Source: Candidatus Jordarchaeia archaeon (GTDB lineage Archaea; Asgardarchaeota; Jordiarchaeia; Jordiarchaeales; Jordiarchaeaceae). Taken from it: DNA of 64,000 nt. The DNA is taken from positions 7,609 to 71,608 of the forward strand of contig JAHQXB010000063.1 in the NCBI GenBank assembly GCA_029856435.1. Direction: 5' to 3'. The translations under genes and the position numbers were made by a program. Below, piece after piece: positions 2,718-41,374 of this stretch; the first letter of the stretch is position 1; the number at the start of each line of letters is the position of its first letter. The notes under the pieces are model-generated. The model was not told the origin of the DNA. It ran no database searches and saw only the letters and a program-made list of their open reading frames with translations.

Positions 2718-3425
2718 CTATTTCTGAAGGATAGCGAATTTTCCACAGGTGGGACATTTTCCATTCAGTCTGACGTAGGCTTTTATGCAGCCCTCATGGA
2801 AGAGAACCGAGCAAGATTCACACTTCCAAATTGCTACCACATTGTTAAGGACTGTTTTGCAAAGTCCGCAGATTCCGCTTTTGGGAAGCAGTAGAGGGCG
2901 CAGATAAGCGATAGATGCGAGGTTTAAAGCTTCTGCAAAGGGGCAATAGGTGTGGAAAACGCCTGAACCAGCTTGACAGCCTATTCCACCCAACTGCTTC
3001 CACTCGCTCTTAAGCTCAAATACGTTTCCGACGCGGGTAATAACCCAACAAGGTTCCTTACAAAATCTTGAAAAAATTTTTTTGTAGCCATTTAGGAATC
3101 CTCTTGAAATAGCTTGTGTTGTCGCTGCTAGTTCTTCATCACGAGAATTTCTGAATAAAACATCTCGATTCACGAGATGACCCAATTCGTGAGCCATAAC
3201 AGCAGCAACTTCATCTTCGCTCCATCCCCTCAATTTTTCACTTATAGTAATAAAATGTTCCCTCACAACGCTTTTCCTCCCTTTTCTCAACTCAACGGTT
3301 TTAACACTCGCAAGCATATCCTTCTTAAGTTCACCAAACTTGGTTTTGAATTTTTCATTTTTTAAATCAGGGAACGCAGGCAGCACCAAATTTCTCAGAA
3401 TCCATCCCAAATAATGCTCACTCAT
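2718..3425 (-). CDS. HExxH zinc metalloprotease domain (M48/HtpX-like motif) fused to a C-terminal C4HC3 RING-type zinc finger
   Basis: 235-aa ORF. The N-terminal half carries AHELGHLVNRD (HExxHxxxxD). The C-terminus is CGLC-x12-CESC-x4-H-x2-C-x10-CPTC. Confidence 0.7.
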   Translation of the reverse strand: MSEHYLGWILRNLVLPAFPDLKNEKFKTKFGELKKDMLASVKTVELRKGRKSVVREHFITISEKLRGWSEDEVAAVMAHELGHLVNRDVLFRNSRDEELAATTQAISRGFLNGYKKIFSRFCKEPCWVITRVGNVFELKSEWKQLGGIGCQAGSGVFHTYCPFAEALNLASIAYLRPLLLPKSGICGLCKTVLNNVVAIWKCESCSVLFHEGCIKAYVRLNGKCPTCGKFAILQK

Positions 3426-3515
3426 TAGAACAGCTCCCGAAGACCAAACAGATAAAAAGCAAATAAGAAAGGTAAAACAGCATTTAAAAAGAATTCCGAA
3501 TATACAATATAGACA

Positions 3516-3633
3516 TTCCAGTTAATTTTTCCTTTTCGCTTCCAGAAAATATGGTTTTTTTCCGCCTTTTTTGGGAAAGAAGCCTTAAATAACCCCGGGT
3601 TAAGGATAGGTTTAGGAAAAAATTAATGAGAAA
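3516..3633. repeat. Dispersed ~120-bp intergenic repeat, copy A (inverted relative to copy B at 43187-43306)
   Basis: By hand alignment, the reverse complement of 3516-3633 matches 43187-43306 apart from a few substitutions and 1-nt indels (tttctcattaattttttcctaaacct...ttaacc(c)ggggttatttaaggcttctttccc...ccatattttctggaagcgaaaaggaaaaa). Confidence 0.6.
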
Positions 3634-3719: not shown

Positions 3720-4580
3720 ATGGGAGATATAGATTATTATAAGCGTTTAACATTAGAAGCTAAACTGATTAAACAAAAGTACAAGACACTTGGAACCGGC
3801 AGAGAAGGAAAACTCTCCAAATGGTCGGGCTACATCACAGTTAGAAATCGCCCCCTTTTTGTTTCAATTCAGATACCTGAAGATTTCCCTAACAAGCCAC
3901 CCCTCATAAAGGCCAGCGGTGTTCAAACTAATTTAAATGAGGAGTTAGGCGTTCTCAAAAATTGGAGACAAGAATACAACGTAACAGATGTTATAGACGC
4001 TCTGAGAAAATATTTAGAAGAAAAAATAGATGCAGATAAGACCACACCAAGGAGGCTGGCAGAAGAACTTCAAAGAATGATAGAAAATTCACATTTACTT
4101 ATGAGTAGATCCGAGTATGTGTCCATTAGACTCACGAGGGACACCTCCAGCCTAAGAGAATACAGATTAATGGTTGTATTCCTAAAATACTCAAAACCAA
4201 GACTTAATGGAAAAGTAATAAACATTAAACTAGTTCTCCCAGAAGAATTTCCAACGGTGAAACCAAGAATAGAAATATCCAGCGGCAAAGAAGAAATAGA
4301 TTTGAATTTGGAAAAATATTTAGAGAATCTACCGCCTATGAGGAATTGGACTCCGGATAAGCACCTATTTGAAGTTGCATTATCCATTTTAGAATTTTTT
4401 AGTAATTTTGCGATGGCAGTTTGCCCAATTTGCCTAAACAAAATTACTGCACAGGAATATGATAGCGCCATCAAATGTATAAACCCCAGATGCCGGAGCT
4501 TGTATCACAAAAATTGCTTCGAAGGCTGGATAAGACAAGGATACAAAAGAGAATGTGTGTTTTGTGACACACCAGTATAA
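3720..4580 (+). CDS. Putative E3 ligase: two UBC/RWD-like modules followed by a C4HC3 RING-type finger (FANCL-like architecture)
   Basis: 286-aa ORF. Two modules carry the UBC/RWD signature (IPEDFPNKPPLIKA and LPEEFPTVKPRIEI), neither with a catalytic Cys context. The C-terminus is CPIC-x14-C-x5-C-x4-H-x2-C-x13-CVFC. Confidence 0.6.
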   Translation: MGDIDYYKRLTLEAKLIKQKYKTLGTGREGKLSKWSGYITVRNRPLFVSIQIPEDFPNKPPLIKASGVQTNLNEELGVLKNWRQEYNVTDVIDALRKYLEEKIDADKTTPRRLAEELQRMIENSHLLMSRSEYVSIRLTRDTSSLREYRLMVVFLKYSKPRLNGKVINIKLVLPEEFPTVKPRIEISSGKEEIDLNLEKYLENLPPMRNWTPDKHLFEVALSILEFFSNFAMAVCPICLNKITAQEYDSAIKCINPRCRSLYHKNCFEGWIRQGYKRECVFCDTPV

Positions 4581-4613: not shown

Positions 4614-5765
4614 CTATTTTATGAAGTTTAACTTGAAGGTTTTAGGGGTGGCAAGATATTTTGATATTACAAATATATTTTCGCCAGACTTCAATCCAAC
4701 ATCCTTAAGCCTGAGTTCTTCCCCCAAGGGGAAGTGCTCCCTGTATGCTATTTCGGGGTCGGGAATGGCATATCTTTGGGAAATCTGTACTTTGATGTCA
4801 AAAACCGTAGCATTTGAATCCACGTTCATTTGCTGTGCTTCGTCTCCCAACCCGCAGAGCCAACAGTCAGCTCTTCGCGTCCGAGTCAAGCAATCGAGAC
4901 CCCCGCTGATTCCGTTATATCGAAACATCTCCACACTTCTAGGTAAGCCGAGCAAAACTTTTATTGCCTCTTGGGACTGAATCCCCGCTATTATGGCGTT
5001 CGTAGTTAGGATGGCTGGTAATTTTGGAGCTATCTTTTCCTGTATTTCTTTTGCGAGTTCCTCAGAAACTCCTGGAACTGAGACCAAGTTTTTAAGTTTG
5101 GCGTATTTTAGATCAAGCTCAGTCTTGTAGCCTCTTAAAAATAACTCTTCAACAATATCAAGTGTTAAACCTTTTATTCCGTACTTTTCCAACTCGTTGA
5201 ATAAATCGCGGGGCTTGCGTCTTCTCAAAGAACACCAAACTCTCTGCTTCTCTTTGGGAGGATAACACTCATAACAGGGAGTCACGTAAGGGATTATTAC
5301 ACGTACGTGACCAAAGAAACCATGTGTACCAGCATCAATAAAGGGTTTATTTAGAGACACCGCCACTGAGTTCAGATAACGGCGGCCTTCAAAATTATCC
5401 AAACTACTCAGAAAAATATCAGCTTTCCGATACACATCAATACTAATACACTCTATATTATCATAGTAAGATTCAACTTCTACGTTGGGATTCATTTCAG
5501 TCAAGTTACGTTTAGCAGCCACAACTTTGGGTGAACCGATATCCTGGTCTCTATACAACATTTGCCTACTTAGATTGGAGAGCTCCACAACATCATTATC
5601 TATTATAATTAATTTCCCAACACCCATAAGAATCAAATTTTTTGCCGATTCGCAACCCAGAGCACCCATACCCGCAATTAAAACAGTAGAATTCATCAGT
5701 TTATCCTGATTCCAAGCAACACCCATAACATTCACAAGTTTTTGTCTATGATAACGACCCTCCAT
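4614..5765 (-). CDS. Ubiquitin-activating E1-like enzyme (ThiF/MoeB/Uba family)
   Basis: 383-aa ORF. The nucleotide-binding motif is LIAGMGALGCESAKNLILMGVGKLIIIDNDVVELSNLSRQ. Two CxxC pairs are present (CYEC, CWLC). It is the last gene of the Ubl-E2-E1 string. Confidence 0.85.
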   Translation of the reverse strand: MEGRYHRQKLVNVMGVAWNQDKLMNSTVLIAGMGALGCESAKNLILMGVGKLIIIDNDVVELSNLSRQMLYRDQDIGSPKVVAAKRNLTEMNPNVEVESYYDNIECISIDVYRKADIFLSSLDNFEGRRYLNSVAVSLNKPFIDAGTHGFFGHVRVIIPYVTPCYECYPPKEKQRVWCSLRRRKPRDLFNELEKYGIKGLTLDIVEELFLRGYKTELDLKYAKLKNLVSVPGVSEELAKEIQEKIAPKLPAILTTNAIIAGIQSQEAIKVLLGLPRSVEMFRYNGISGGLDCLTRTRRADCWLCGLGDEAQQMNVDSNATVFDIKVQISQRYAIPDPEIAYREHFPLGEELRLKDVGLKSGENIFVISKYLATPKTFKLNFIK

Positions 5766-5794
5766 GCCAAAACCCTCACAGAAGTTTCACTTTT

Positions 5795-6214
5795 CTACCA
5801 ACCCTGGTTGGCGTAGTTTAGAACATATTCCCGGGCTATTTCAAGAAATTTTTGCGGTTCCCGTCTCTGCTGGTAAGCCGCCTGTGAATTAAGGGGATTA
5901 TCAGGGTTAGGATTGTTCAGCAGCGTCCTCAGAGCTTCTATAACCCCAACAATGTTTGTCTGTGGCTTCCACTCTCTCCCCAATATTGCTATACAAACCG
6001 AAAAAGGCGGCCGATCACCGAAAGCAATATTAGGATGCCATATCCGAGTGTGCCACAAAACTTCCGGTGGCTCAAAAGGAAAACGCCGAGTAATCTTAAT
6101 CTCAACCTTAAACATTCCCCCTTCGTAGGGGGAACCGGCGGAACCGTATATTATTCCGCGCCAATGAGTTAACTTACCATTCACCGAATGGAAGGTAGGC
6201 TCCTCCCTCCTCAT
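5795..6214 (-). CDS. Ubiquitin-conjugating E2 (UBC fold). The annotated ATG probably truncates the N-terminal helix (see finding).
   Basis: 139-aa ORF with WHPNI (HPN motif) and an active-site context FSVCIAIL. Also THWRGIIYGSAGSPYEGGMF, as in canonical E2s. Helix-1-like sequence (SERYWARLALEAQR) is encoded in frame upstream of the ATG but has no start codon. Confidence 0.85.
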   Translation of the reverse strand: MRREEPTFHSVNGKLTHWRGIIYGSAGSPYEGGMFKVEIKITRRFPFEPPEVLWHTRIWHPNIAFGDRPPFSVCIAILGREWKPQTNIVGVIEALRTLLNNPNPDNPLNSQAAYQQRREPQKFLEIAREYVLNYANQGW

Positions 6215-6367
6215 CCGCTGAGCCTCTAATGCGAGCCTAGCCCAGTAGCGTTCCGAATCAAGTTGAGCAGGCGTTTAGGAACCCCCTGAAGAATTATGTT
6301 CTAAGCTTCCATGGTAAGCTAAGACCATGTCGGAATTTTGTGTCGAATAGGAAATCCTTAAATGTTT

Positions 6368-6613
6368 CTAGAAGCCACCTTCAATATCAGAACTGACATA
6401 GAATATTTTATCGCCATCTTGAACTCCAACACTTCCCAGAGGGGCATTATCATCTTGTAGTTCAATACCCCTACAGGTTAGGGTGAGAGCACTTGCTGGA
6501 ACTCCACATTGTTTAGCCACTCTCTCTTTCAGAGACTTCACACTTTCCTCTGGGTCTACCTCCATCTCAAAGGGGGCTTCCTGACCGATAGCAGGTACAA
6601 TTCGGATGAGCAT
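6368..6613 (-). CDS. Ubiquitin-like protein precursor (beta-grasp) with a C-terminal GG followed by one extra residue
   Basis: 81-aa ORF ending ...SSDIEGGF. It is ubiquitin-sized and is the first gene of the Ubl-E2-E1 string. Confidence 0.8.
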   Translation of the reverse strand: MLIRIVPAIGQEAPFEMEVDPEESVKSLKERVAKQCGVPASALTLTCRGIELQDDNAPLGSVGVQDGDKIFYVSSDIEGGF

Positions 6614-6714
6614 TGTTTAACCACCAACAACTTAACTGGTAAGTGTAAATCTTATTATATGTATTCAGAGGAAGATGAACAATTTAAAGTCTTCTCATAG
6701 AAATCTAGCTACTA

Positions 6715-6749
6715 GAAAGACAACCTAGATCACGAGAAAGACAACCTAG
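6715..6749. promoter_or_regulatory. Two direct copies of GAAAGACAACCTAG spaced 21 bp apart, upstream of the Ubl-E2-E1 operon
   Basis: Exact 14-nt copies lie at 6715-6728 and 6736-6749. A partial third copy (acaacct) lies near 6778. They sit ~100-135 bp upstream of the Ubl start (6613, minus strand). Confidence 0.3.
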
Positions 6750-6947
6750 TTTACGGACAGCAACTTCGAATGAAGTACAACCTATAATAAGAGATGTTCT
6801 AATCCGCATTTCCCATTCCTAAAAAGTGAATCTATTTGTGGGTTTCCAGCCGCAAGTATTTGTGAAAAGTAAAAGGGACGTGAAGCGTGAGTCTATCTGT
6901 CCTTTTTTAACGAAAACTAGTTGTGAAGTCTTTTGAAAATTTGTTAT

Positions 6948-7637
6948 TTATTTGGTGAGCCAGCCATATTTTTTGTATGTTTTAATTCCTTCTTTTGATT
7001 TTAGGAATTGAATGAATTTTTTCGCCGTGTCTTTGTTTTTGCAGAAGGCGGTTGCTGCTATTAGGGTGCTTCTGTAAACTTGTGCTTCTCTGGGGATTTC
7101 AATTGCGTCGAATGTTTTGGGGTGTAGAGCTTTGTAGGTATTCCATCCGAATGCCACATCCACCTTTTTTCTGACTATGGAGCCTAGTAGTTCTCCGCAT
7201 CCATCGGCGAAAAGTGTTATGTTTTTTTGTATTTCTTGTGTTAGAGCAGTTTTGCTGGCTATTTCGTCCCAGACTCCCTTTAGACTGTCTACCGTAGATA
7301 TGGCGATTTTGATGTCTTTTTTTGTTAAATCATGGAGGGATCTTATTTTTTTGGGGTTACCTTTCTGTGTTAGGATTACTGATCTTCTGTAGCCTAGGAT
7401 GCTTCTGGTTTCTCTGTCTATTAAATTATTTTTTTGTAGTTCATCCATTATGTATGCTGCTCCACAGGTAAAAACGTCGCAGAGTCCAGTTTCGATTTTG
7501 GGAATTATTTCCGATGGCAGCCCTATGGTATATTTGAGTTCCACGCCACATATTTCTTGAAATCTTTTTCCAGAAATTTTTAGGGGGGTGGCAACATCAC
7601 AGCAAGAACAAATATTTAAAACCTGCTTCTGAGACAA
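6948..7637 (-). CDS. Periplasmic-binding-protein-fold protein (ModA/molybdate-tungstate-binding-like) without an obvious signal peptide
   Basis: 229-aa ORF. General resemblance to type-2 PBP/ModA proteins (DVFTCGAAY..., ILTQKGNPKKIRSLHDL, KIAIS, DVAFGWNTY). The assignment is by motif memory only. Confidence 0.45.
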   Translation of the reverse strand: MSQKQVLNICSCCDVATPLKISGKRFQEICGVELKYTIGLPSEIIPKIETGLCDVFTCGAAYIMDELQKNNLIDRETRSILGYRRSVILTQKGNPKKIRSLHDLTKKDIKIAISTVDSLKGVWDEIASKTALTQEIQKNITLFADGCGELLGSIVRKKVDVAFGWNTYKALHPKTFDAIEIPREAQVYRSTLIAATAFCKNKDTAKKFIQFLKSKEGIKTYKKYGWLTK

Positions 7638-7773
7638 ATATTTTCTCCTCCCTTTTACGGAATGTCAGAGTTATCAATAGTTTTATAATAAAATCTAATA
7701 AAATATGCCTCATATGTGGAAATAATGGATGATGGTGTAGAGTATTTGTGGCTCTGTTATTTGAGAAAAGAAA

Positions 7774-8478
7774 GTGGCGCGTCCGCTTGGGATTGCTCGG
7801 TGGGGAAAACTTATGGTTGATGTTAGGATTTATCCTTTGACTCTTGCTAAGATTATTAGGCATAGTACAATGTTTTCGGGTATAGAAGTGGCAGGTGTTT
7901 TGATTGGGAGATTAGTGAATGGTGTAGTTGAGATTTCGGATTCGGATACCGGTCCGCAGATTGGTACAACGGGCCATGTGAAGCTGGCGAGATATGTGGC
8001 GCCACTCATTGCTGAGAAGCTTCACAGGCAGGGAAGAAGTGATTACATTGTTGGGTGGTATCACTCACACCCGGGATTTGGCTGTTTTCTTTCTCCAATT
8101 GATGTAGACACCCAATCAGGACTCCAGAAGATGTTTTCCAAATGCGTAGCGTTGGTCGTTGACCCTTATGAGTTCATTATTTCGGGTCGCCCACGTGATG
8201 CAAAAATCGAAATGTTTAGAGTTCAAGATGGTAGAATTGTTACACTGGAATATGAGGTTGTTTTTGAGACTGATAAGATTATCAGAAACTTTATTGATAA
8301 CCTAGAGAGAGGCGAGGATCAATACGTAACTTCTTTAGACAAGATTAGGTTAGAGTTTTATGAATGGAACAGAAAGTTGGAAGAAAAAGTAGGTTTTGTT
8401 ACTGAGGAAATCAAACAAATCCGTGAAGCACTGGCAAACATTCTTGAAGCACTAAAGCAAGGTAGACGAATATCATAA
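7774..8478 (+). CDS. JAB1/MPN+ (JAMM) metalloprotease, Rpn11/CSN5-like putative deubiquitinase or Ubl-processing enzyme
   Basis: JAMM motif: EVAGVLIG ... HSHPGFGCFLSPIDV (E, HxH-x7-S-x2-D). The C-terminal ~60 aa are coiled-coil-like. A more likely start is the ATG at 7813 (MVDVRIYP...). Confidence 0.85.
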   Translation: MARPLGIARWGKLMVDVRIYPLTLAKIIRHSTMFSGIEVAGVLIGRLVNGVVEISDSDTGPQIGTTGHVKLARYVAPLIAEKLHRQGRSDYIVGWYHSHPGFGCFLSPIDVDTQSGLQKMFSKCVALVVDPYEFIISGRPRDAKIEMFRVQDGRIVTLEYEVVFETDKIIRNFIDNLERGEDQYVTSLDKIRLEFYEWNRKLEEKVGFVTEEIKQIREALANILEALKQGRRIS

Positions 8479-9828: not shown

Positions 9829-10747
9829 TCACTCTTCGCCGAACAAAATTTTGGATAGTTCTTTTAGTTGTTCTATGCCCCGGATTTCTTTGTCGTAGAG
9901 GGGAACCTCTGTTATGTTAAAGTCGTCGTATAGTTCATGTATTTCTTTAAGGTTCTCTAACTGCATACTTCTACGTGCCCGACAAAAGGGACAGTTAGGT
10001 ATGTCTGGATAAACCATGTTAACGATTATGTGGTCGCAGGGGATTTCGTACTCGTTGAGAGCGGAGAGTAATCTTTCTGTCTCAAAAACAGCCATTGCTT
10101 CAGGTATCATAACAACTACGAAAGCTGTACTCTCCGGATTCGATAGTTCAGCCCGAGCCACATCAATGGTAGTCTTCAGTTTTTCCAAAACTTCCATACT
10201 GCGATCAACTTCACCGCCCTTGCCGATTAATTTTTTAAAGAGTCCCGCTAGTCGTCCAAAGTATTCCCTTATTTTTAGCATGTTAATAACCCAGCCGCTG
10301 AGTACATCTGGCAGCGATAAGAGCCTTAAGGTGTGTCCCGTTGGGGCAGTATCAAATATTACGAGGTCATACTCAGGATTTTCGATGTATTCAAGTACCT
10401 TAGCAAACGCTAAGGCCTCGTCTGCTCCTGGAGGAGTCATACCAGTTAAGCCCCCCATACTCTCCAGTAGTGATTGGGCCTGAGGCTCGGAAAAATCTCC
10501 TTGCTCCAGATTTTTCTTGTAATCCTCAAAGGCTTTATGAGGGTCAATCTCTAATCCGTAGAGATTTTTTACTCCCTTAATTTTCTTAATTTTTGGACCT
10601 ATGTGTTGGTCAAAACTATCACTTAGGCTATGGGCAGGGTCTGTACTAATGATAAGGGTTTTGAGTCCATATTCCGCTGCCCAAATAGCTGCAGCAGCCG
10701 AGCAACTGGTCTTTCCTACTCCCCCTTTTGAGGGACTAGTTAAACAT
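9829..10747 (-). CDS. Get3/ArsA-family ATPase (TRC40-like). The 5' end is anomalous (see finding).
   Basis: The track ORF 9829-10458 contains DTAPTGHTLRLL and a CPFC (CxxC) motif. My translation upstream in the same frame gives LCLTSPSKGGVGKTSCSAAAAIWAAEYGLKTLIISTDPAHSLSDSF, which is the P-loop and switch region. No ATG/GTG/TTG lies in that frame after an in-frame TAG (10750-10752). An SD-preceded ATG at 10745-10747 is out of frame. Confidence 0.8.
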
Positions 10748-10998
10748 AACTAATCTTTCCTCCGAAGAGTAGGAATTTTACTTGCCTCTCTTTTAGTAGA
10801 TCGGCTATTGTCATTGCTTACTTCCACCTGTTTTTCAGTTATGATTATGATTGGTGACATATTTACACATTTATGCTTGAATTTAAGTTTTATTCATTAG
10901 ATTCTACCTGTTTTGAGAATTAATTTTTGACCTATTACCTTGAATCGGAGATTTACAATTTATAAAGGTTGAACTTATTTGAAATCCCTGTATTTATC

Positions 10999-18788: not shown

Positions 18789-19307
18789 ATGGGTGAGGAA
18801 CCCCGGGTTGTTAAAATTTTGGTCACAGGACCTTACTCCTCTGGAAAAAGTACAGTGGTCAGCAAACTCTGCAAAGATGCAGTAAGCATAGATGCGCTTC
18901 AGACAACTGTTGGTTTTGATTTTGGTTCCAGATACGAGGAAGTCAATTTTTTGGATTTGAAGATTTTTGGAACGCCCGGACAAGAGAGGTTCAAATTTTT
19001 ACAAGAGATTTTAGCTAAGGGGAGTGCGGGTATTTTGTTAGTGGTGGATAGTACTTCTCCTGAAAATGTGGATTTAGCGAAAAATATTCTAGTGAGGATA
19101 AGGAAGGAGCTTTCAAAGAAGGTACCTGTTGTTATTCTTGCTAACAAACAGGATTTGGTAGGGGCCTTAAGCCCCGAGGAAGTTAGAAAAAAGATGGGAG
19201 TTTCGCGCAATGTCCCAGTCATAGGCACCGTGGCTCCAGAATCCATTGGTCTAAAAGAAGCTATTACAACTTTAATCAAACTAATGTTAAAGGCGGAAAA
19301 ACAGTAG
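18789..19307 (+). CDS. Small Ras-superfamily GTPase (MglA/Arf-like)
   Basis: G1 is GPYSSGKST, the switch I Thr lies in LQTTVGF, G3 is GTPGQERF and G4 is ANKQDL. 172 aa. Confidence 0.8.
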   Translation: MGEEPRVVKILVTGPYSSGKSTVVSKLCKDAVSIDALQTTVGFDFGSRYEEVNFLDLKIFGTPGQERFKFLQEILAKGSAGILLVVDSTSPENVDLAKNILVRIRKELSKKVPVVILANKQDLVGALSPEEVRKKMGVSRNVPVIGTVAPESIGLKEAITTLIKLMLKAEKQ

Positions 19308-19385
19308 ACGTAAATTAGAACTATTACTTAACTGTAAATTTGTTTTATGATGGTTTTTATTGTGTAATTCTACTGTTTTTGGATT

Positions 19386-20084
19386 CTATATTGCGGGTTT
19401 TCCACATTTTTTGCAGTACCTTGCTTTTGGGGGCAATCTTGATCCACAGTATATGCAGAAGGAAAATTCGTCGTCGTTTTCTGAGAATAGTGTGGTGCTC
19501 CCATAGTTTTGTGGATAGTTTGATTCGTTTTGATTCATTTCTTCAGAGTGGTTAAAAATGTCAGATATGGATTCTGTGGTGTGGCTTCCTTTTTCTTTGG
19601 GAGCGGGTGGGATTGAGTTGTGCTCGGTGTTTTCTGCATTTTCGAATAGGTCTGACGCTGTGATTGGTTTATTGCGGTAGGGGTATGGTTTGGCGGATTC
19701 TTTGGGTTCGCAGTATCGAGGCCCGAGGTTATTAATGTCCAGACCTTTTGAGTATTCTATGAATTTATTGTGCAAGTATGTTTTTAATCGAAAATAGTCT
19801 TCTTTAGATAAGCCCAGTAGTTCAAGTGCTCTATCTCTGTTTTCGCATGGTTTTTCTAAGCTGCAGCAGTAGGCTAAGCTACCATAACAGGTGGTTGCCA
19901 TTGCTTGTTCTTGTGGACTTTTAAATATGGGGGGTATGCGGGCACCACCAATTATTAGGACGCTCCCCTCTTCTACCTTTATGTCTGCGAAGCCTTCTGT
20001 TATTAGAGCTTGTAAAACTTGGTTTGCAGGGTAGACTCTGCCACCAATAACGATGAACCCCTCAGCCTTAGGCGCCCTTTCCAT
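19386..20084 (-). CDS. Hypothetical protein with a C-terminal zinc ribbon
   Basis: 232-aa ORF. The C-terminus is CIYCGSRLPPKARYCKKCG. The N-terminal domain is unrecognised. Confidence 0.4.
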   Translation of the reverse strand: MERAPKAEGFIVIGGRVYPANQVLQALITEGFADIKVEEGSVLIIGGARIPPIFKSPQEQAMATTCYGSLAYCCSLEKPCENRDRALELLGLSKEDYFRLKTYLHNKFIEYSKGLDINNLGPRYCEPKESAKPYPYRNKPITASDLFENAENTEHNSIPPAPKEKGSHTTESISDIFNHSEEMNQNESNYPQNYGSTTLFSENDDEFSFCIYCGSRLPPKARYCKKCGKPAI

Positions 20085-20256
20085 GCGTATCCATCCAGAG
20101 TTTAAAAGTATATTTGAAAACAGCTGTTTTAAGCAGTATTAACATTTTTACGCTTCAAATAGCGGTTCTTAAAATATTTTTTAATGTCCATATTAATAAT
20201 TGTAAATATTTTCCACGTATATTGGTTTAGCTAGTTTTTAATTAAAGGCTAGATGT

Positions 20257-20787
20257 TCATCCGCAAGGTGCTTCGGAGAGAATTATTTCTTCCCTTTTTT
20301 TAGATGTTTTCCTTTTTCTGACCATATTTCTGTTATTAATTTTTTCAGTTTTTCCCGATGGGCAGTTGTGCTTTTCGGGTAGTCTATGTTCGGCGCAGTA
20401 GTATCCGCCGCAGCGTTTACATTTGAAGGTTAAGGGAGTTATGGCCAAGCAGTAGTTGCAAGTTCCGCTGGCATATCCTAAGCGTGTCACCGTTATTTCT
20501 TCGAATTTCACCTTTTTGCCTAAGAGGAGGTATAGTCTTATTAAGATTTTTTTTGCTATTTCTTCGCACTCCTCTTTAGAAATACGCTCTTCTGGAATTA
20601 TTATGTTTATTTTATCTCCGTCCACGATGAGAGTGAGGTCTACAATTCGTCCATTGTGTTCTATGCTTCCCCGGGCAATATTTTGGCCAATAATACTTAA
20701 AGCCATTTCTGAGGTTAATCTCCGGAAGATTACTTGATTTAAGCCATTAATTAGCGCCTGAAAAATTTGATTACTCATACTTTTCAC
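20257..20787 (-). CDS. AN1-type zinc finger protein
   Basis: The C-terminus CNYCLAITPLTFKCKRCGGYYCAEHRLPEKHNC fits the AN1 pattern C-x2-C-x9-12-C-x2-C-x4-C-x2-H-x5-H-x-C. Confidence 0.7.
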   Translation of the reverse strand: MKSMSNQIFQALINGLNQVIFRRLTSEMALSIIGQNIARGSIEHNGRIVDLTLIVDGDKINIIIPEERISKEECEEIAKKILIRLYLLLGKKVKFEEITVTRLGYASGTCNYCLAITPLTFKCKRCGGYYCAEHRLPEKHNCPSGKTEKINNRNMVRKRKTSKKREEIILSEAPCG

Positions 20788-21046
20788 CCAAATTTAGCTC
20801 TTTGAAATAAAAGAGCCACTTAAAGTTTATTAAGTAATCCCAAAAAAATATATCCTGACGCTTACGCAAAAATAAATTCTAGCTATTGGATTTTAGTTAA
20901 ATATTTTATTTACTTGTGTTAACATATGTTTTTTCGGGGTACTAATTTACACTAGTTGGGCTTTTTTTATGCCCACATCAAAAGTTTTAATATGTTAGGT
21001 TAGTAGATATTCTGTAGAGAAAAAGTGAAAGGGGCTGTTAAAAGCG

Positions 21047-21841
21047 TTGTCCAGCAGCAATTTTGAACTAACCCTGGCACGGGAAACTCAACTAATGTAT
21101 CAGAGAACTCGCGGTTTTGAGCCAGTTAAAGGCGATCTTACCCGTTGGAGAGGCGAAATCGCCGGTAGAGGCGAATTCCGAGGACTTAAATTTGAGGTGG
21201 AAATTAGGGTTCCTCCCACATTCCCAATAGATCCTCCTCAAGTGTACATGATTTCTCCCACTGAGCACCCTAATGTAGATATTGAAACGGGAAGAGTTCA
21301 ACTGAATATTTTGGAGCACTGGAGACCGGAATACCACCTTTATCATGTAGTAAACACCTTGAAGGGTGCTTTTGCGAGGATCCCTCCACGTCCAGCAACA
21401 AGTCGAGTTAGATTTGGAAAAGAGGCTCCTAAGGTGACTTTAACACTGGTTGGGAAAGAGGATAAGACCGAGGAGGGAGAAGTAACTAGCTCTGAGGCCG
21501 CTTCAGAATTATCTGAGGGTGAGTCGGAAATCCAGAAACTTAGACGCTTGCTCCAGGAACGCGAGGAAGAAATAGCCATGCTACGTGGCAGATTGTCCGC
21601 TCACAATGTACCAGAAGTGGCTCAGGAGAGCGAGTCTACGTCTCTTCCTGGGGATCCCGCGTTTCGTGAAGTTCTGGATGTTGAGAGCGAGAAAATAGCT
21701 ATTGAGGACTTGATCAGGACACTTGAAGAAAAATTTGAAGCGGGGGAAGTAGGTCCAACCGAGTATGCTAAGCTATATAAGAGGTATAAGAAACAGCTGT
21801 ACATAGTAAACAAGAGACTGGAGAAGCTTTCGGCTAGGTAA
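21047..21841 (+). CDS. ESCRT-I Vps23/Tsg101-like protein: UEV (catalytically inactive E2 variant) domain plus coiled-coil stalk
   Basis: TTG start. A UBC fold with HPNV, but the active-site Cys position reads GRVQLNIL (no Cys). An acidic linker and a long coiled coil follow. It sits directly upstream of the Vps28-like gene. Confidence 0.7.
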   Translation: MSSSNFELTLARETQLMYQRTRGFEPVKGDLTRWRGEIAGRGEFRGLKFEVEIRVPPTFPIDPPQVYMISPTEHPNVDIETGRVQLNILEHWRPEYHLYHVVNTLKGAFARIPPRPATSRVRFGKEAPKVTLTLVGKEDKTEEGEVTSSEAASELSEGESEIQKLRRLLQEREEEIAMLRGRLSAHNVPEVAQESESTSLPGDPAFREVLDVESEKIAIEDLIRTLEEKFEAGEVGPTEYAKLYKRYKKQLYIVNKRLEKLSAR

Positions 21842-21864
21842 TCCGCGAGGATGGAGGATAAAAA

Positions 21865-22533
21865 ATGAAGACTGCAGAAAAATCTAGAGGGAAACAATCG
21901 AAGAACGATTTGGAAGAACATTTGGAATTAGAGGCGGAACTGTACTCTTGCATAGCTACTCTGGATATGCTGGGTAAAAATTATGATAATGGTTTAATTG
22001 ATGCCTCCACCTACAGCCGCCAAATGAGAGCCTACATCCAAAAAATTATCGACGTACGTAAAAAATTGGAAGAAAAAGGTTTTGATCTAACCAAGTTTAT
22101 AGAGCAAGAAAAAATCATAGAAAATTATCCCAACGCTGCGGTGAAGCTAAGAATTGTTAAATCCGATGAAACTGTTATGAGACCAGAGGAAGAGATACCC
22201 TTAGAAATAGTTAAGTTCTCACCAGCAAAATTAGCCACGGAAACAGCTGACCTTGTAACAAACTTCATCACATTAATAGACTGCGTCCAATTAGGAGACT
22301 ATGCCCGGGTGGATAACATAGTTCCCATAATGGATGACATAATACTCCTCATGGAAAACTACACAGGACTGAATGACAAGAACTACTGGGTTTACAAAGA
22401 GATAACCGCTTGGCGTGACAAACTCAAAAACGAGCCTCCAGACCTTGTGATTGACTCCGAAGACGCAAAAAAAATAGAGTACGACGCAGTAAGGTGGTTT
22501 AAAGACTTCCGCCAAAGAATAAGACAATTATAG
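21865..22533 (+). CDS. ESCRT-I Vps28-like protein
   Basis: The N-terminal region AELYSCIATLDMLGKNYDNGLIDASTYSRQMRAYIQK resembles the Vps28 core motif (LYAII.T.E.LEKAY.RD.I...EY) recalled from eukaryotic Vps28. The C-terminal half is helical. Confidence 0.65.
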   Translation: MKTAEKSRGKQSKNDLEEHLELEAELYSCIATLDMLGKNYDNGLIDASTYSRQMRAYIQKIIDVRKKLEEKGFDLTKFIEQEKIIENYPNAAVKLRIVKSDETVMRPEEEIPLEIVKFSPAKLATETADLVTNFITLIDCVQLGDYARVDNIVPIMDDIILLMENYTGLNDKNYWVYKEITAWRDKLKNEPPDLVIDSEDAKKIEYDAVRWFKDFRQRIRQL

Positions 22534-22551
22534 AAGAGGAGCCATAAAAAG

Positions 22552-23286
22552 ATGGGAATACGGGAATTACGCGACCGGATGGAGAAAAAAAAGTACATGC
22601 AAAAAAAGGCCACAGAATTCAAATTGGAGGAAATAAAAAGCGATTTGGAAACCGCAACAGAAACAAAAGAGAAACTGGAAGAAATCGCTAGAAAATATGG
22701 AGTCATCATAGCTACCAGTCCCAAACTACAGGATGAAATTGAAAGAATCAGAAAACAGTACGGAATACCCAACGAATCCATAATCACCCAAATAATTTCC
22801 GAAGAAGAAGTACTTAAAAGGGGAACAATGGGAATAGGAACAAAAATCGACCACGAAAAACTGGGAATGCTACTCTATCAAAGAGCCCTGCTTAAACGCA
22901 AAGAAAACGGAGGAATAATGACCTTCGCAGAAGCCTACCTACTAACAAACACGGGGAAACTCGCCCAAAAACTTGAAAACAAAGACATTGAAAAAGCAGT
23001 AAAAATACTTGAGAAAAACAAACTCATACCAGGAATACGCCAACTGAAAAGCGGAGTAAAAATAATAAGCTTCTTCCCCATAGAACTAACCGACGACCAA
23101 AACGAAGTACTAAGCATAGCAAGTAGAAGCGGAAGCGTCACCCTAGAAGAAATAATGCTAAAAACAGGTTGGACAAAAACCCGCGCACAAAGCGTACTAC
23201 AAACCCTAGAAGAAGAAGGAATAACCAGAAAAGACAAAAGCTACGCCCACGGAGAAAAATACTACTTCCCAGGATTCGTGCACTAA
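22552..23286 (+). CDS. ESCRT-II EAP30-family (Vps22/Vps36-like) protein with tandem winged helices
   Basis: An N-terminal basic helix, then GGIMTFAEAYLL... and a second wH (SGSVTLEEIMLKTGWTKTRAQSVLQTLEEEGI). It lies in a string with the Vps23-like and Vps28-like genes. Confidence 0.6.
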   Translation: MGIRELRDRMEKKKYMQKKATEFKLEEIKSDLETATETKEKLEEIARKYGVIIATSPKLQDEIERIRKQYGIPNESIITQIISEEEVLKRGTMGIGTKIDHEKLGMLLYQRALLKRKENGGIMTFAEAYLLTNTGKLAQKLENKDIEKAVKILEKNKLIPGIRQLKSGVKIISFFPIELTDDQNEVLSIASRSGSVTLEEIMLKTGWTKTRAQSVLQTLEEEGITRKDKSYAHGEKYYFPGFVH

Positions 23287-40003: not shown

Positions 40004-41374
40004 ATGACACAAACGCAAAAAGGAGAAAAATTTGAAGTCAAAGACCTAAAACTAGCACCAAGCGGACGAGCAACAATTGAGTGGGCAGAATCAAGAATGC
40101 CCGTGCTCATGCAAATAAGAGAGAGGTTCCGAAAAGAAAAACCGCTTAAAAACACCATAGTAGGAGCATGCCTCCATGTAACAAAAGAAACAGCAGTTCT
40201 TGCAAAAACCCTGAAAGCTGGAGGTGCAGAAGTCTACCTCTGTGCCTCAAACCCCCTATCAACACAGGACCATGTAGCCGCCGCACTGGTAGAAGAAGGA
40301 ATAAACACATTCGCCTGGAAAGGCATGGACTACGAAGGCTACTACCGAGCAATAGCCAACGTTATTAAGGGAGAACCGAACATCACACTAGACGACGGCG
40401 CCGACCTAGTATCAACCTTAATCAAACTCAAAAGAGGAGAAACCGGCGAGGAAATCAAGGTAGTTAAGAAAATTCTTGGAAGCCGAACAGACTGGGCGGA
40501 CAAAGTATGGGCCGGAGCCGAGGAGACCACAACGGGCGTAATCCGCCTTAGAGCCATGGCAAAAGATAACGTGCTACTATACCCAATTATAGCTACAAAT
40601 GATACCCCCACAAAATGGGAAACATAAACACCCCCCGTGTTTAAGCCCAAATTTGACAACCTGTGGGGAACTGGGCAAAGCACCATAGACGGCATACTGA
40701 GAGCAACAGCAGACCTTATCGCGGGCAAAATTTTTGTAGTCGCAGGGTATGGCCATTGCGGTAGAGGCGTAGCGCTAAGAGCTAAGGGGCTAGGAGCGAG
40801 AAGAGTCATCATATGCGAGATAAATCCACATCGAGCCTTAACAGCCGCCTTAGAGGGTATGGAAGTAATGCCCATGAGGGAAGCCGCAGAGGTGGGAGAC
40901 ATTTTCGTAACCGCCACAGGATGCAAGAACGTCATAAATGCAGAACATATGAAAAAGATGAAAAACGGAGCAGTGATGTGTAACACAGGTCACTTTAATG
41001 TGGAAATAAATATACCTGACTTGGAGAAAATCAGCGTTAGCAAGAGAGAGATAAGACCACTAGTCGATGAGTACACACTGGAGGATGGAAGAAAAATCTA
41101 CCTACTAGCCCAAGGCAGGCTTGTGAATCTAGCATGTGCTGAGGGACACCCAAGCGAAGTTATGGACATGAGCTTTTCTGATCAGGCTTTAGCTGTGGAG
41201 TGGATTGTTAAGAATAGGGATAAGCTGTCTGGGATGGGTAGTGTGGTTTTGGATATTCCTGAAGAGATTGATAGGACTGTTGCAGAATTGAAGTGTAAGG
41301 CTATGGGTCTTAGATTAGATGTTTTGACCCCTGAGCAGGAAGCTTATTTGTCGGGCTGGGCTGAAGGAACCTAG
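40004..41374 (+). CDS. ahcY: S-adenosyl-L-homocysteine hydrolase, interrupted by a 30-nt in-frame insertion carrying a TAA
   Basis: Track ORFs 40004-40627 and 40637-41374 are in the same frame. Together they give a full AhcY ([17 protein letters not shown], ...[36 protein letters not shown]). Confidence 0.9.
40616..40645 (+). other. 30-nt insertion with an in-frame TAA and an internal hairpin inside ahcY (candidate mRNA intron; the junction is ambiguous by 1-2 nt)
   Basis: tgggaaacataaacaccccccgtgtttaag. Removing it gives NDTPTK-PK-FDN, which is the canonical ND..TK..FDN spacing. Helices tggg/ccca, caaa/tttg and aaacat/gtgttt, with an aag bulge, are visible. Confidence 0.55.

What the first reader, a model, noticed from the sequence alone, without database searches (positions are those of the whole stretch)
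10732..10860. The get3/arsA 5' end is anomalous: the P-loop frame has no start, there is an in-frame TAG, and an upstream in-frame mini-ORF ends in a beta-strand-like MSPIIIIT
The Get3/ArsA P-loop (SKGGVGKTS) is encoded upstream of the listed ORF. In that frame the only thing preceding it is a TAG (10752-10750).

Thirty-six codons further upstream, in the same frame, is ATG 10860 (MSPIIIITEKQVEVSNDNSRSTKREASKIPTLRRKD*). MSPIIIIT looks like the beta-1 strand that normally abuts the deviant Walker A.

Two excisions give a classic ParA/ArsA N-terminus:
- removing 10836-10732 (105 nt) gives MSPIIIIT-SKGGVGKTS;
- removing 10836-10738 (99 nt, bounded by a TAACT repeat) gives MSPIIIIT-SPSKGGVGKTS.

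The exon end CATAACT (10843-10837) is perfectly complementary to AGTTATG (10751-10745) near the 3' end of the intervening segment.

There is a competing reading. A GGAGG-preceded ATG (10747-10745) lies one nucleotide out of frame, which is compatible with a 1-nt indel or a +1 frameshift. The C-terminal CPFC motif suggests a genuine Get3-type zinc-linked dimer.
Basis: partly seen in the sequence, partly recalled or inferred. Interest (0 to 1): 0.65.

Follow-up and report, generated by a model that had tools for sequence, protein, structure and literature searches.

The report
Mini-intron splits an archaeal Get3 gene
The Get3/ArsA ATPase gene of this Asgard archaeon is interrupted, in the middle of its ATP-binding motif, by a 29-base insert that folds like the introns of archaeal tRNAs. 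At least three other genes nearby carry the same kind of insert, so this lineage probably splices many of its messenger RNAs.

Summary
The P-loop frame has no start codon and an in-frame TAG.

The real N-terminus lies in the third frame: ATG 10814, MTIADLLKERQVKFLLFGGK. A 29-nt insert (10756-10728, minus strand) separates it from GGVGKTS.

- **Orthologues:** uninterrupted Freyarchaeia/Jordarchaeia (Asgard archaea) orthologues read ...FGGK|GGVGKT..., exactly at this joint.
[quoted passage not shown] Cutting after the second bulge nucleotide, the known rule for the archaeal splicing endonuclease, removes exactly 29 nt. This restores a 318-aa full-length Get3.
- **Conservation:** five sequence variants of the insert, from at least 10 independent assemblies, keep the fold. 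dN/dS among them is 0.015-0.07.
- **Sister introns:** the same rule restores three more split genes in this window: a radical SAM enzyme, S-adenosylhomocysteine hydrolase (AhcY) and tyrosyl-tRNA synthetase (TyrRS). It also restores three introns in AhcY of Freyarchaeum deiterrae.
- **Gap in the evidence:** I could obtain no RNA evidence for get3.

I found only one coding-gene BHB intron (cbf5, Crenarchaeota) in the literature searched.

The parts
10824..10828 (-). Shine-Dalgarno-like GGTGG, 9 nt upstream of the true start codon
   Evidence: Sequence. It is conserved in the intron-bearing copies and, as GGTG(G/A), GGCGG or GGAGG, in the intron-less orthologues.
10757..10814 (-). Exon 1 coding sequence: ATG 10814 ... 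GGA GGA A. It encodes MTIADLLKERQVKFLLFGG plus the first base of the Lys20 codon.
   Evidence: Third-frame translation. It matches the N-termini of the uninterrupted orthologues. It stays open in all 5 variants, with synonymous changes.
10764..10775 (-). 5' strand of the exon-exon helix h (UUCCUACUCUUC, the codons of FLLF)
   Evidence: RNAfold. It pairs 12/12 in all five intron-bearing variants, against 6-9/12 in eight intron-less orthologues.
10759..10762 (-). Central 4-bp helix H, 5' strand (GAGG)
   Evidence: It is invariant and paired in all 5 variants.
10756..10758 (-). 5' bulge AAA. The predicted cut lies between 10757 and 10756.
   Evidence: The fold. The cut rule, between the 2nd and 3rd bulge residue, is from PMC2738675.
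10728..10756 (-). The 29-nt intron AGAUUAGUUAUGUUUAACUAGUCCCUCAA. A-runs at both ends mean that removing 10758-10730, 10757-10729 or 10755-10727 gives the same product.
   Evidence: It is absent from the orthologues in L003-L006, L009-L015 and L027. It is 28 nt long in L002.
10734..10755 (-). Intron hairpin h' (GAUUAGUUA / UAACUAGUC, loop UGUU)
   Evidence: Two of its pairs change on both sides among the variants: G-C to A-U, and C-G to U-A or U-G.
10730..10733 (-). Central helix H, 3' strand (CCUC)
10725..10729 (-). 3' bulge AAA(AG). The predicted cut lies between 10728 and 10727. The bulge is relaxed: 5 nt opposite the single G10763 in the minimum-energy register, or 3 nt plus an A.G mismatch in the canonical register.
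   Evidence: the registers were worked out by hand from the sequence.
10713..10724 (-). 3' strand of the exon-exon helix h (GGGGAGUAGGAA, within the codons of GGVGK)
   Evidence: The two synonymous differences among the variants keep the pairing (G-U to A-U and the reverse).
9829..10727 (-). Exon 2 coding sequence: AA GGG GGA GUA ... through to the stop codon. Together with exon 1 it gives a 318-aa Get3/ArsA.
   Evidence: The spliced translation. Pfam ArsA_ATPase matches profile positions 2-304 of 305, E = 2.5e-96. Residues 5-317 align to archaeal Get3 3zq6.

Best explanation
The get3/arsA gene carries a 29-nt bulge-helix-bulge (BHB) intron in the codon of the first Walker A lysine (phase 1).

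**Proposed mechanism.**
1. The pre-mRNA folds so that the codons of FLLF pair with the codons of GGVGK. This gives the outer helix.
2. Next to it lie a 4-bp helix (GAGG/CCUC), an AAA bulge on each strand, and an intron hairpin.
3. The archaeal RNA-splicing endonuclease (EndA, which in Asgard archaea is the broad-specificity alpha-beta heterotetramer) cuts after the second nucleotide of each bulge.
4. The tRNA ligase RtcB joins the exons.
5. The spliced mRNA reads ...FGG-K-GGVGKTS... and encodes a complete 318-aa Get3.
6. Unspliced mRNA can only give a 24-residue peptide (MTIADLLKERQVKFLLFGGKISYV).

**Shown here:** the insert, its exact boundaries relative to orthologues, the conserved fold, purifying selection on the gene, and that the same cut rule repairs several other genes.

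**Inferred:** that EndA and RtcB do the cutting and joining, and that splicing is efficient.

I see no sign of a regulatory role. The simplest view is a tolerated intron, gained recently in a lineage where BHB introns proliferate.
For: **(1) Exact joint.** Removing 29 nt gives MTIADLLKERQVKFLLFGGK|GGVGKTSC.... This is colinear with the uninterrupted orthologues of Freyarchaeum deiterrae, Jordarchaeia and metagenome relatives. These share the gene neighbourhood where I compared called genes: the intron-less L027 against the intron-bearing loci L017-L023.

**(2) Fold.**
- MFE -29.1 kcal/mol, z = -4.69, 0 of 200 shuffles fold as well.
- The geometry is that of a pre-tRNA BHB: on each strand the bulge lies 3' of its H strand.
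- The published cut rule removes exactly 29 nt.

**(3) Rank in the window.** My BHB scanner ranks this site first in the whole window on both strands. It scores 18. The next real hit scores 15, shuffles reach 16 and the reversed sequence reaches 17. Among ORF-joining hits the next scores 11, and the control reaches 13.

**(4) Conservation.** There are five variants from at least 10 independent assemblies. The intron is 29 nt in four variants and 28 nt in one. All fold alike. 95.8% of cells are paired, against 44-60% when the partners are slid. Two pairs change on both sides.

**(5) Exon-exon helix.** It is 12/12 paired in every intron-bearing copy but only 6-9/12 in eight intron-less orthologues that encode almost the same peptide.

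**(6) Selection.** dN/dS is 0.015-0.07 at dS up to 0.38 among intron-bearing copies.

**(7) The same rule repairs other genes.**
- Radical SAM gene: 31 nt removed, recreating the conserved Ile in PSGT-I-FF.
- AhcY: 30 nt removed.
- TyrRS: 30 nt removed, giving EPSG-LF-HLGW.
- Three introns in F. deiterrae AhcY: the product is 446 aa and aligns with 0 gaps.
- The shared AhcY intron is 30 nt in the window but 29 nt in F. deiterrae.

**(8) Context from the literature.** Asgard archaea have EndA with the broad-specificity loop. In Freyarchaeia, 92-95% of tRNA genes carry introns.

**(9) RNA.** In a true RNA-Seq run, a 219-nt closed-cycle contig has its junction at the predicted 5' cut of the TyrRS intron.
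Against: - No spliced get3 RNA was seen. The only runs labelled as RNA that cover the site (X11, X19) hold the unspliced form. They look like DNA, because they contain 85-kb contigs.
- X20 does not cover the site.
- No full-length protein more than 90% identical exists in the 5.8-billion-protein collection, so no assembled spliced transcript is on record.
- The 3' bulge is not canonical: 5 nt opposite 1 nt in the minimum-energy register.
- With five sequences, the covariation is not significant by the shuffle control (135 of 500 shuffles reach the observed score).
- EndA and RtcB were not identified in this genome.
Confidence: 0.85

Rival explanations
1. Translational bypassing (hopping), as in phage T4 gene 60 or the mitochondrial byp elements. 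The ribosome would take off at Lys codon AAG 10757-10755, skip the hairpin, and land on AAA 10728-10726. The same protein would result without any RNA splicing.
For: The take-off and landing codons are both Lys, and a hairpin starts right at the take-off site. For get3 the product would be identical, so the sequence alone cannot exclude this.
Against: - No stop codon follows the take-off codon. The next codon is AUU, and the stop comes four codons later.
- Bypassing does not explain the conserved 4-bp helix with 3-nt bulges, or the 12-bp exon-exon helix tuned by codon choice. A translating ribosome would melt that helix.
- The sister inserts argue against it. In TyrRS, the in-frame Gly codon inside the insert (GGU) that could serve as a landing site would add two residues before the HIGH motif. 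In AhcY, matching Lys codons would delete two residues. The BHB rule gives gap-free proteins in every case.
- One F. deiterrae AhcY insert is 191 nt long.
Confidence: 0.06
2. The gene is inactivated by a 29-nt insertion (a pseudogene), or it makes only an N-terminally truncated protein from an internal start.
For: Every public gene call in this 90% cluster is truncated. There are 12 members, the longest 296 aa, and the calls that I inspected (L017/L018) start at the GTG of GGVGK. Several are annotated as 'partial'.
Against: - dN/dS is 0.015-0.07 over dS up to 0.38 since the insert arose.
- Exon 1 keeps its ATG, its Shine-Dalgarno-like motif and an open frame in all variants.
- A protein that starts at Val23 lacks beta-1 and half of the Walker A motif. 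In the window even that GTG is GTA, so the first possible start is 10458.
- The essential TyrRS gene carries the same kind of insert.
Confidence: 0.04
3. Either MSPIIIIT (ATG 10860) is exon 1 and a 99- or 105-nt segment is excised, or a 1-nt indel or +1 frameshift puts ATG 10747 in frame.
For: The arithmetic of the excisions works, and MSPIIIIT looks like a beta strand.
Against: - No orthologue has such an N-terminus.
- The mini-ORF and ATG 10747 are not conserved among close relatives.
- The assembly is backed by 70x depth in run X1, and by at least 10 independent assemblies with the same insert.
- ATG 10747 lies in the loop region of the intron hairpin.
Confidence: 0.01

Closest known systems
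The cbf5 pre-mRNA intron of Crenarchaeota (Aeropyrum, Sulfolobales, Desulfurococcales)
   Same: - It is a BHB-type intron inside a protein-coding sequence.
- Its motif is often relaxed.
- It is cut between the 2nd and 3rd bulge residues by the hetero-oligomeric EndA.
- It sits in phase 1 in the codon of a catalytic residue. In cbf5 this is the catalytic Asp (PMC2738675). Here it is the first Walker A Lys.
- It is present in some lineages and absent in close relatives.
   Different: - The gene differs (Get3/ArsA) and so does the phylum (Asgard).
- Here it is one of several such introns in a 64-kb stretch. For cbf5 it is the only coding-gene case reported (PMC7714728).
- Splicing of cbf5 was shown by cDNA and by in vitro cleavage. 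Here it is only inferred.
BHB introns of archaeal pre-tRNAs, especially the intron-rich tRNA genes of Atabeyarchaeia and Freyarchaeia
   Same: - The motif geometry is the same: helix, 3-nt bulge, 4-bp helix, 3-nt bulge, helix, with each bulge 3' of its H strand.
- The presumed enzymes are the same.
- The host lineage is the one in which 92-95% of tRNA genes carry introns, often at non-canonical positions (PMC11291895).
   Different: - The host RNA is an mRNA.
- The exon-exon helix is built from codons, not from a tRNA stem.
- The paper on these genomes does not mention mRNA introns.
The BHB intron in the 5' UTR of HVO_1309 mRNA (Haloferax volcanii)
   Same: It is an EndA-processed BHB in an mRNA (PMC7714728).
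   Different: It lies in the untranslated leader, so the reading frame does not depend on its removal.
Unconventional cytoplasmic splicing of HAC1/XBP1 mRNA (IRE1 plus tRNA ligase/RtcB) in eukaryotes
   Same: From my own knowledge, not tested here. A very short intron (26 nt in XBP1) is defined by RNA stem-loops and removed by an endonuclease that leaves a 2',3'-cyclic phosphate. The exons are joined by the tRNA ligase, and removal changes the reading frame.
   Different: The endonuclease is different (IRE1) and so is the recognition motif. That splicing is regulated by stress, and nothing here suggests regulation. This is a resemblance in how it works, not family membership.
Translational bypass elements (T4 gene 60; byp inserts in Magnusiomyces mitochondria)
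   Same: They are short inserts (27-55 nt) in coding sequence that contain a hairpin and lie between matching codons. (From my own knowledge.)
   Different: They are removed at decoding, not at the RNA level. They have no BHB core and no need for an exon-exon helix. Bypassing does not fit the sister inserts here.

Membership tests
Archaeal BHB intron (substrate of EndA and RtcB) | A 4-bp central helix flanked by a 3-nt bulge on the 5' strand, with the bulge 3' of the H strand | tested here: met
   GAGG/CCUC is 4 bp, invariant and paired in 5 variants. The AAA bulge (10758-10756) follows it directly, and is followed by a hairpin stem of 5-9 bp in the five variants.
Archaeal BHB intron (substrate of EndA and RtcB) | A second 3-nt bulge on the 3' strand, directly followed by the exon helix | tested here: inconclusive
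   AAA is followed either by an A.G mismatch plus a 5-bp helix, or (in the MFE register) by a 5-nt bulge opposite 1 nt plus a 12-bp helix. This makes it a relaxed motif. The sister introns have canonical 3-nt 3' bulges: radical SAM (AUU), TyrRS (AAU) and F. deiterrae AhcY A, B and C.
Archaeal BHB intron (substrate of EndA and RtcB) | Outer helices on both sides of the bulges | tested here: met
   The exon-exon helix is 12 bp (12/12 in all variants). The intron helix is 5-9 bp.
Archaeal BHB intron (substrate of EndA and RtcB) | Cutting between the 2nd and 3rd nucleotide of each bulge gives the functional joint | tested here: met
   The rule removes 10756-10728 (29 nt) and restores the frame and the orthologue-identical FGGK|GGVGKT. 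The same rule gives gap-free proteins for 6 further introns.
Archaeal BHB intron (substrate of EndA and RtcB) | The RNA is actually cleaved by EndA and the exons are ligated (a spliced RNA exists) | not testable with these tools
   No RNA run covers the get3 site. The only RNA hint is a circular contig ending at the predicted TyrRS 5' cut.
Archaeal BHB intron (substrate of EndA and RtcB) | The host encodes a splicing endonuclease able to accept relaxed motifs | not tested
   This rests on the literature only: Asgard archaea carry the (alpha-beta)2 EndA with the L1 loop (PMC5829648). I did not look for endA or rtcB in this genome. None turned up among the window ORFs that I scanned.
Get3/ArsA (TRC40) ATPase | A full-length ArsA_ATPase domain with the deviant Walker A motif GKGGVGKT | tested here: met
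   This holds only after the 29 nt are removed. Pfam PF02374 matches profile positions 2-304 of 305, E = 2.5e-96. The protein aligns over residues 5-317 to archaeal Get3 3zq6 and over 6-318 to 3ug6.
Get3/ArsA (TRC40) ATPase | The CxxC zinc motif of Get3 dimers, and a role in targeting tail-anchored proteins | tested here: inconclusive
   CPFC is present. The function cannot be tested here.
Translational bypass element (T4 gene 60 type) | Matching take-off and landing codons, with a stop codon directly after the take-off codon | tested here: not met
   Lys/Lys codons do match (AAG and AAA). But the codon after take-off is AUU, and the stop comes four codons later. The sister inserts in AhcY and TyrRS lack a usable codon pair that would give the right protein length.

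The most novel reading that the evidence does not exclude
Protein-coding genes of the Jordarchaeia/Freyarchaeia (Asgard archaea) are routinely interrupted by short BHB introns (28-31 nt, some up to about 190 nt).

- At least 4 of about 60 genes in this window carry one, including the essential TyrRS.
- Three lie in a single gene of the complete F. deiterrae genome.
- Gain and loss are ongoing. The get3 intron is confined to one shallow clade. AhcY has one intron here and three in F. deiterrae.

This would be an archaeal lineage in which mRNA splicing by the tRNA-splicing machinery is a normal step of gene expression. Many of its database proteins would be mis-called as fragments.
Probability: 0.75. 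Interest if true: 0.9.

Novelty: new member of a known kind. Interest (0 to 1): 0.85.

Why it matters
**A rare kind of intron.** The papers I found report only one protein-coding gene family (cbf5, Crenarchaeota) with a BHB intron in its coding sequence. That has been the case since 2002.

**What is new here.** A second, unrelated gene carries one, in an Asgard archaeon. It is not alone: three more genes in the same 64 kb carry one, and one gene of the closed F. deiterrae genome carries three.

**Consequences if RNA data confirm splicing.**
- Messenger RNA splicing by the tRNA-splicing endonuclease and ligase would be common in a lineage close to the origin of eukaryotes. That bears on how introns invade coding genes, and on the origin of RtcB-dependent mRNA splicing (HAC1/XBP1).
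- Gene catalogues of these genomes would need correcting. All 12 Get3 entries of this clade are truncated. AhcY pieces are annotated as separate proteins, one of them as 'NAD(P)-dependent oxidoreductase'. Metabolic reconstructions and gene-content phylogenies therefore count broken or duplicated genes.
- The introns seen here lie at or beside conserved active-site motifs (Walker A, CxxxCxxC, HIGH). Whether this reflects an insertion preference or a detection bias is open.

Tried and rejected
  - X11 and X19 are labelled metatranscriptomic but contain 85-kb contigs and hold the unspliced form, so I treat them as DNA-like.
  - The raw reads of X21 gave 0 hits.
  - X20 does not cover the get3, radical SAM or AhcY introns.
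- **Covariation statistics.** With 5 sequences the shuffle control is not significant. I rely instead on the slid-partner control and on the comparison with intron-less orthologues.
- **My first strict BHB scanner.** It found only get3 and wrongly suggested there were no other split genes. Very permissive versions drowned in gene-boundary hits. A mid-stringency version recovers all four introns but still lists many adjacent-gene joins. These I judged by Pfam and PDB alignments, not by score.
- **tRNA and Rfam scans of the window.** Both found nothing.
- **A second copy of the intron sequence in the window.** None was found.
- **Alternative readings considered and rejected.** These were Sec or Pyl readthrough of the in-frame stops (the AhcY intron is 30 nt here but 29 nt in F. 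deiterrae), programmed frameshifting (it would put about 10 residues between beta-1 and the P-loop), and assembly error (at least 10 independent assemblies carry the insert).
Full report
**1. The observation**

I read the region on the minus strand.
- The Get3/ArsA P-loop (SKGGVGKTS) lies upstream of the only listable ORF (9829..10458).
- Its frame holds TAG 10752-10750 and no start codon before 10458.
- ATG 10860 opens MSPIIIIT...RRKD*.
- ATG 10747 lies one base out of frame behind GGAGG.

There, ATG 10814 is preceded by GGTGG at the right distance. It opens MTIADLLKERQVKFLLFGGK and then runs into ISYV*. FLLFGGK is the beta-1 strand and the first half of the deviant Walker A motif (GKGGVGKT) of this family. 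Taking out 29 nt joins it to GGVGKTSCSAAAA.... The result is a 318-aa protein. That protein covers Pfam ArsA_ATPase from profile position 2 to 304 of 305 (E = 2.5e-96). It aligns over residues 5-317 to the archaeal Get3 structure 3zq6.

**2. Orthologues fix the joint**

The organism is an Asgard archaeon of the Jordarchaeia/Freyarchaeia group.

*Copies with the insert.* Scans of genomes and metagenomes returned loci that carry it: L001/L008, L002 and L007. Contig look-ups added L017-L023 and L026.

*Copies without it.* Loci L003 (Ca. Freyarchaeum deiterrae, complete chromosome), L004-L006, L009-L015 and L027 lack it. They share 70-87% protein identity with the window. Where called genes could be compared (L027 against the intron-bearing loci), the neighbours match. 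These uninterrupted genes read MT(I/L)xDLL...F(M/L/I)LFGGKGGVGKTSC. The exon-exon joint is therefore known to the codon.

The mini-ORF is broken in L001 and has no ATG in L002. ATG 10747 is lost in L002 and L007.

**3. The insert is a bulge-helix-bulge motif**

The stretch 10780-10708 folds as follows:
- A 12-bp exon-exon helix (UUCCUACUCUUC / GGGGAGUAGGAA).
- One unpaired G.
- A 4-bp helix (GAGG / CCUC).
- A 3-nt bulge AAA on the 5' strand.
- A 9-bp hairpin.
- AAAAG unpaired on the 3' strand.

The MFE is -29.1 kcal/mol, with z = -4.69, and 0 of 200 shuffles fold as well. On each strand the bulge lies 3' of its strand of the 4-bp helix, as in pre-tRNA. The splicing endonuclease cuts between the second and third bulge residue (PMC2738675). 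Applied here, that rule cuts at 10757|10756 and 10728|10727. It removes exactly 29 nt and forms the Lys20 codon A|AA across the joint.

The 3' bulge is relaxed. It is either 3 nt followed by an A.G mismatch, or 5 nt opposite 1 nt in the MFE register.

A BHB scanner I wrote ranks this site first in the window on both strands. It scores 18, the next real hit scores 15, shuffles reach 16, and the reversed sequence reaches 17. Among ORF-joining hits it scores 18 against 11, and the control reaches 13.

**4. Conservation**

- There are five distinct variants from at least 10 independent assemblies. The intron is 29 nt in four of them and 28 nt in L002, where the loop is shorter. All fold the same way.
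- 95.8% of pair cells are paired, against 44-60% when the partners are slid by 1-3 columns.
- Two hairpin pairs change on both sides: G-C to A-U, and C-G to U-A or U-G.
- With five sequences, the shuffle control is not significant (135 of 500).
- The exon-exon helix is more telling. It is 12/12 paired in every intron-bearing copy. It is only 6-9/12, with scattered mismatches, in eight intron-less orthologues that encode nearly the same peptide. Codon choice therefore serves the helix.

**5. The gene is alive**

Among intron-bearing copies, dN/dS is 0.015-0.07 at dS up to 0.38. Exon 1 keeps its start codon, its Shine-Dalgarno-like motif and its frame.

All 12 public gene calls of this cluster are N-terminally truncated. 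The longest is 296 aa, and several are annotated as 'partial'. The calls I inspected (L017/L018) start at the GTG of GGVGK. No full-length protein more than 90% identical is on record.

**6. The same rule repairs other genes**

While annotating the window I found three more split genes. Each has a 4-bp helix with A/U-rich 3-nt bulges.

- *Radical SAM enzyme (minus strand).* H is GCAC/GUGC and the bulges are AAA and AUU. The rule removes 53076-53046 (31 nt) and creates the Ile codon A|UC. This gives PLVPSGT-I-FFSSCTFKCVFCQN, which matches the consensus of the uninterrupted homologues. A relative at 85% identity (L028) has a 28-nt version with a different, perfectly paired hairpin.
- *AhcY (plus strand).* H is UGGG/CCCA. 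The rule removes 40622-40651 (30 nt, in frame, containing a TAA). This gives TK-WE-FDN, gap-free against PDB 7r39.
- *TyrRS (plus strand).* H is CUGG/CCAG. The rule removes 42186-42215 (30 nt, containing three stops). This gives EPSG-LF-HLGW, gap-free against A. pernix TyrRS. The intron is conserved in F. deiterrae with a different interior.
- *AhcY in F. deiterrae.* The gene is in three called pieces there. Rule-based removal of three introns (56, 29 and 191 nt) gives 446 aa, 86.8% identical to the window's spliced AhcY, with no gaps. The intron shared with the window is 30 nt here and 29 nt there. Readthrough of the in-frame stop is therefore excluded.

One fixed rule thus restores orthologue-colinear proteins in seven introns.

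**7. RNA evidence**

There is none for get3.

There is one hint elsewhere. In the true RNA-Seq run X20, from a relative, a 249-nt contig maps as 42216-42403, then one extra letter, then 42186-42243. Its depth is 25.8. The length 249 equals 219 + 30, which is what a 219-nt closed cycle gives in a graph built with k = 31. The junction falls at the predicted 5' cut of the TyrRS intron. I cannot explain the other end of the cycle. It suggests cleavage and ligation at the predicted site, but it is not a spliced mRNA.

**8. Rival explanations**

- *Translational bypassing.* It would give the same Get3 protein (Lys to Lys). It does not explain the BHB core or the exon-exon helix, and it gives wrong protein lengths for TyrRS and AhcY.
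- *A dead or truncated gene.* This is contradicted by dN/dS, and by the same kind of insert in an essential gene.
- *Frameshifting.* It would insert about ten residues between beta-1 and the P-loop.
- *Assembly error.* This is excluded by the independent assemblies.

**9. Comparison with what is known**

The closest known case is the cbf5 intron of Crenarchaeota. It too is a BHB-type intron, often relaxed, in phase 1 in the codon of a catalytic residue, and it is gained and lost among relatives. As of 2020 it was described as the only additional BHB intron besides a 5'-UTR case in Haloferax. Asgard archaea carry the broad-specificity EndA. In Freyarchaeia and Atabeyarchaeia, 92-95% of tRNA genes carry introns, but the paper on those genomes does not mention mRNA introns. 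Eight literature searches found no report of such introns in Asgard coding genes.

**10. Verdict**

It is a 29-nt BHB intron in the Walker A lysine codon of get3, a new member of a very small known class. Evidence from the same window suggests that the class is common in this lineage. Confidence that the segment is removed by BHB-type RNA splicing is 0.85.

Noticed in passing
window 53046-53076 (minus strand); the gene spans 53530-52381: A radical SAM enzyme gene ('PFL-activase-like') is split by a 31-nt BHB insert five codons before its CxxxCxxC motif. H is GCAC (53082-53079) / GUGC (53051-53048), and the bulges are AAA and AUU. A rule-based splice gives PSGT-I-FFSSCTFKC, matching the homologues. 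Relatives carry 31-nt and 28-nt versions with compensatory hairpin changes (L028-L031). Public gene calls are truncated (P0148, P0160).
   Followed up: yes
window 40622-40651 (plus strand); the gene spans 40004-41374: S-adenosylhomocysteine hydrolase is split by a 30-nt in-frame insert containing a TAA. H is UGGG (40616-40619) / CCCA (40646-40649). The outer helix is CCCCACA / UGUGGGG. The spliced protein (446 aa) is gap-free over the joint against PDB 7r39 and 7o5l.
   Followed up: yes
window 42186-42215 (plus strand); the gene spans 42056-43174: The tyrosyl-tRNA synthetase gene is split by a 30-nt insert with three in-frame stops, just before the HIGH motif. H is CUGG (42180-42183) / CCAG (42210-42213), and the bulges are AUA and AAU. 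The spliced protein (362 aa) is gap-free against A. pernix TyrRS 2cya. Relatives, F. deiterrae included, all show a 43-aa 'exon 1' ORF.
   Followed up: yes
L032 (CP147778.1, Ca. Freyarchaeum deiterrae) 3369-3424, 3508-3536, 4042-4232: AhcY of the closed F. deiterrae genome carries three BHB introns (56, 29 and 191 nt) and is annotated as three proteins. One of them (WXG40865.1) is named 'NAD(P)-dependent oxidoreductase'. Rule-based splicing gives 446 aa with 0 gaps against the window's enzyme. The window has only the middle intron, so introns are gained and lost within the group.
   Followed up: yes
window 42186-42403 (RNA run X20): A 249-nt RNA-Seq contig behaves as a 219-nt closed cycle. It joins about 42403 back to 42186, the predicted 5' cut of the TyrRS intron. 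Its depth is higher than that of the neighbouring contigs. It may be a circular processing product. The downstream end is unexplained.
   Followed up: partly
window about 40633 and 42199-42204 (DNA run X1, second organism at about 6.5x depth): A lower-abundance relative in the same sample has the AhcY intron 3 nt shorter and the TyrRS intron 2 nt longer. The TyrRS insert is therefore not always a multiple of three.
   Followed up: partly
window 4614-8478 and 18789-23286: The window holds eukaryote-like gene clusters typical of Asgard archaea. One has an E1-like ThiF (4614-5765), an E2 UQ_con (5795-6214) and a JAB deubiquitinase (7774-8478). The other has a small Ras/Arf-like GTPase (18789-19307), an E2/UEV-like protein (21047-21841), Vps28 (21865-22533) and EAP30/Vps36 (22552-23286).
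   Followed up: no
window about 5790-5823 (minus strand): The mid-stringency scan lists a BHB-like hit with a strong hairpin (CCAACCAGGGUUGG) at the 3' end of the E2 gene. It could be a terminator or another small intron near the C-terminus. I did not examine it against homologues.
   Followed up: no
window 1-64000: ARAGORN finds no tRNA, and Rfam finds nothing at gathering score, in 64 kb. tRNA genes of this lineage are reported to be intron-rich, so hidden tRNA genes cannot be excluded.
   Followed up: no
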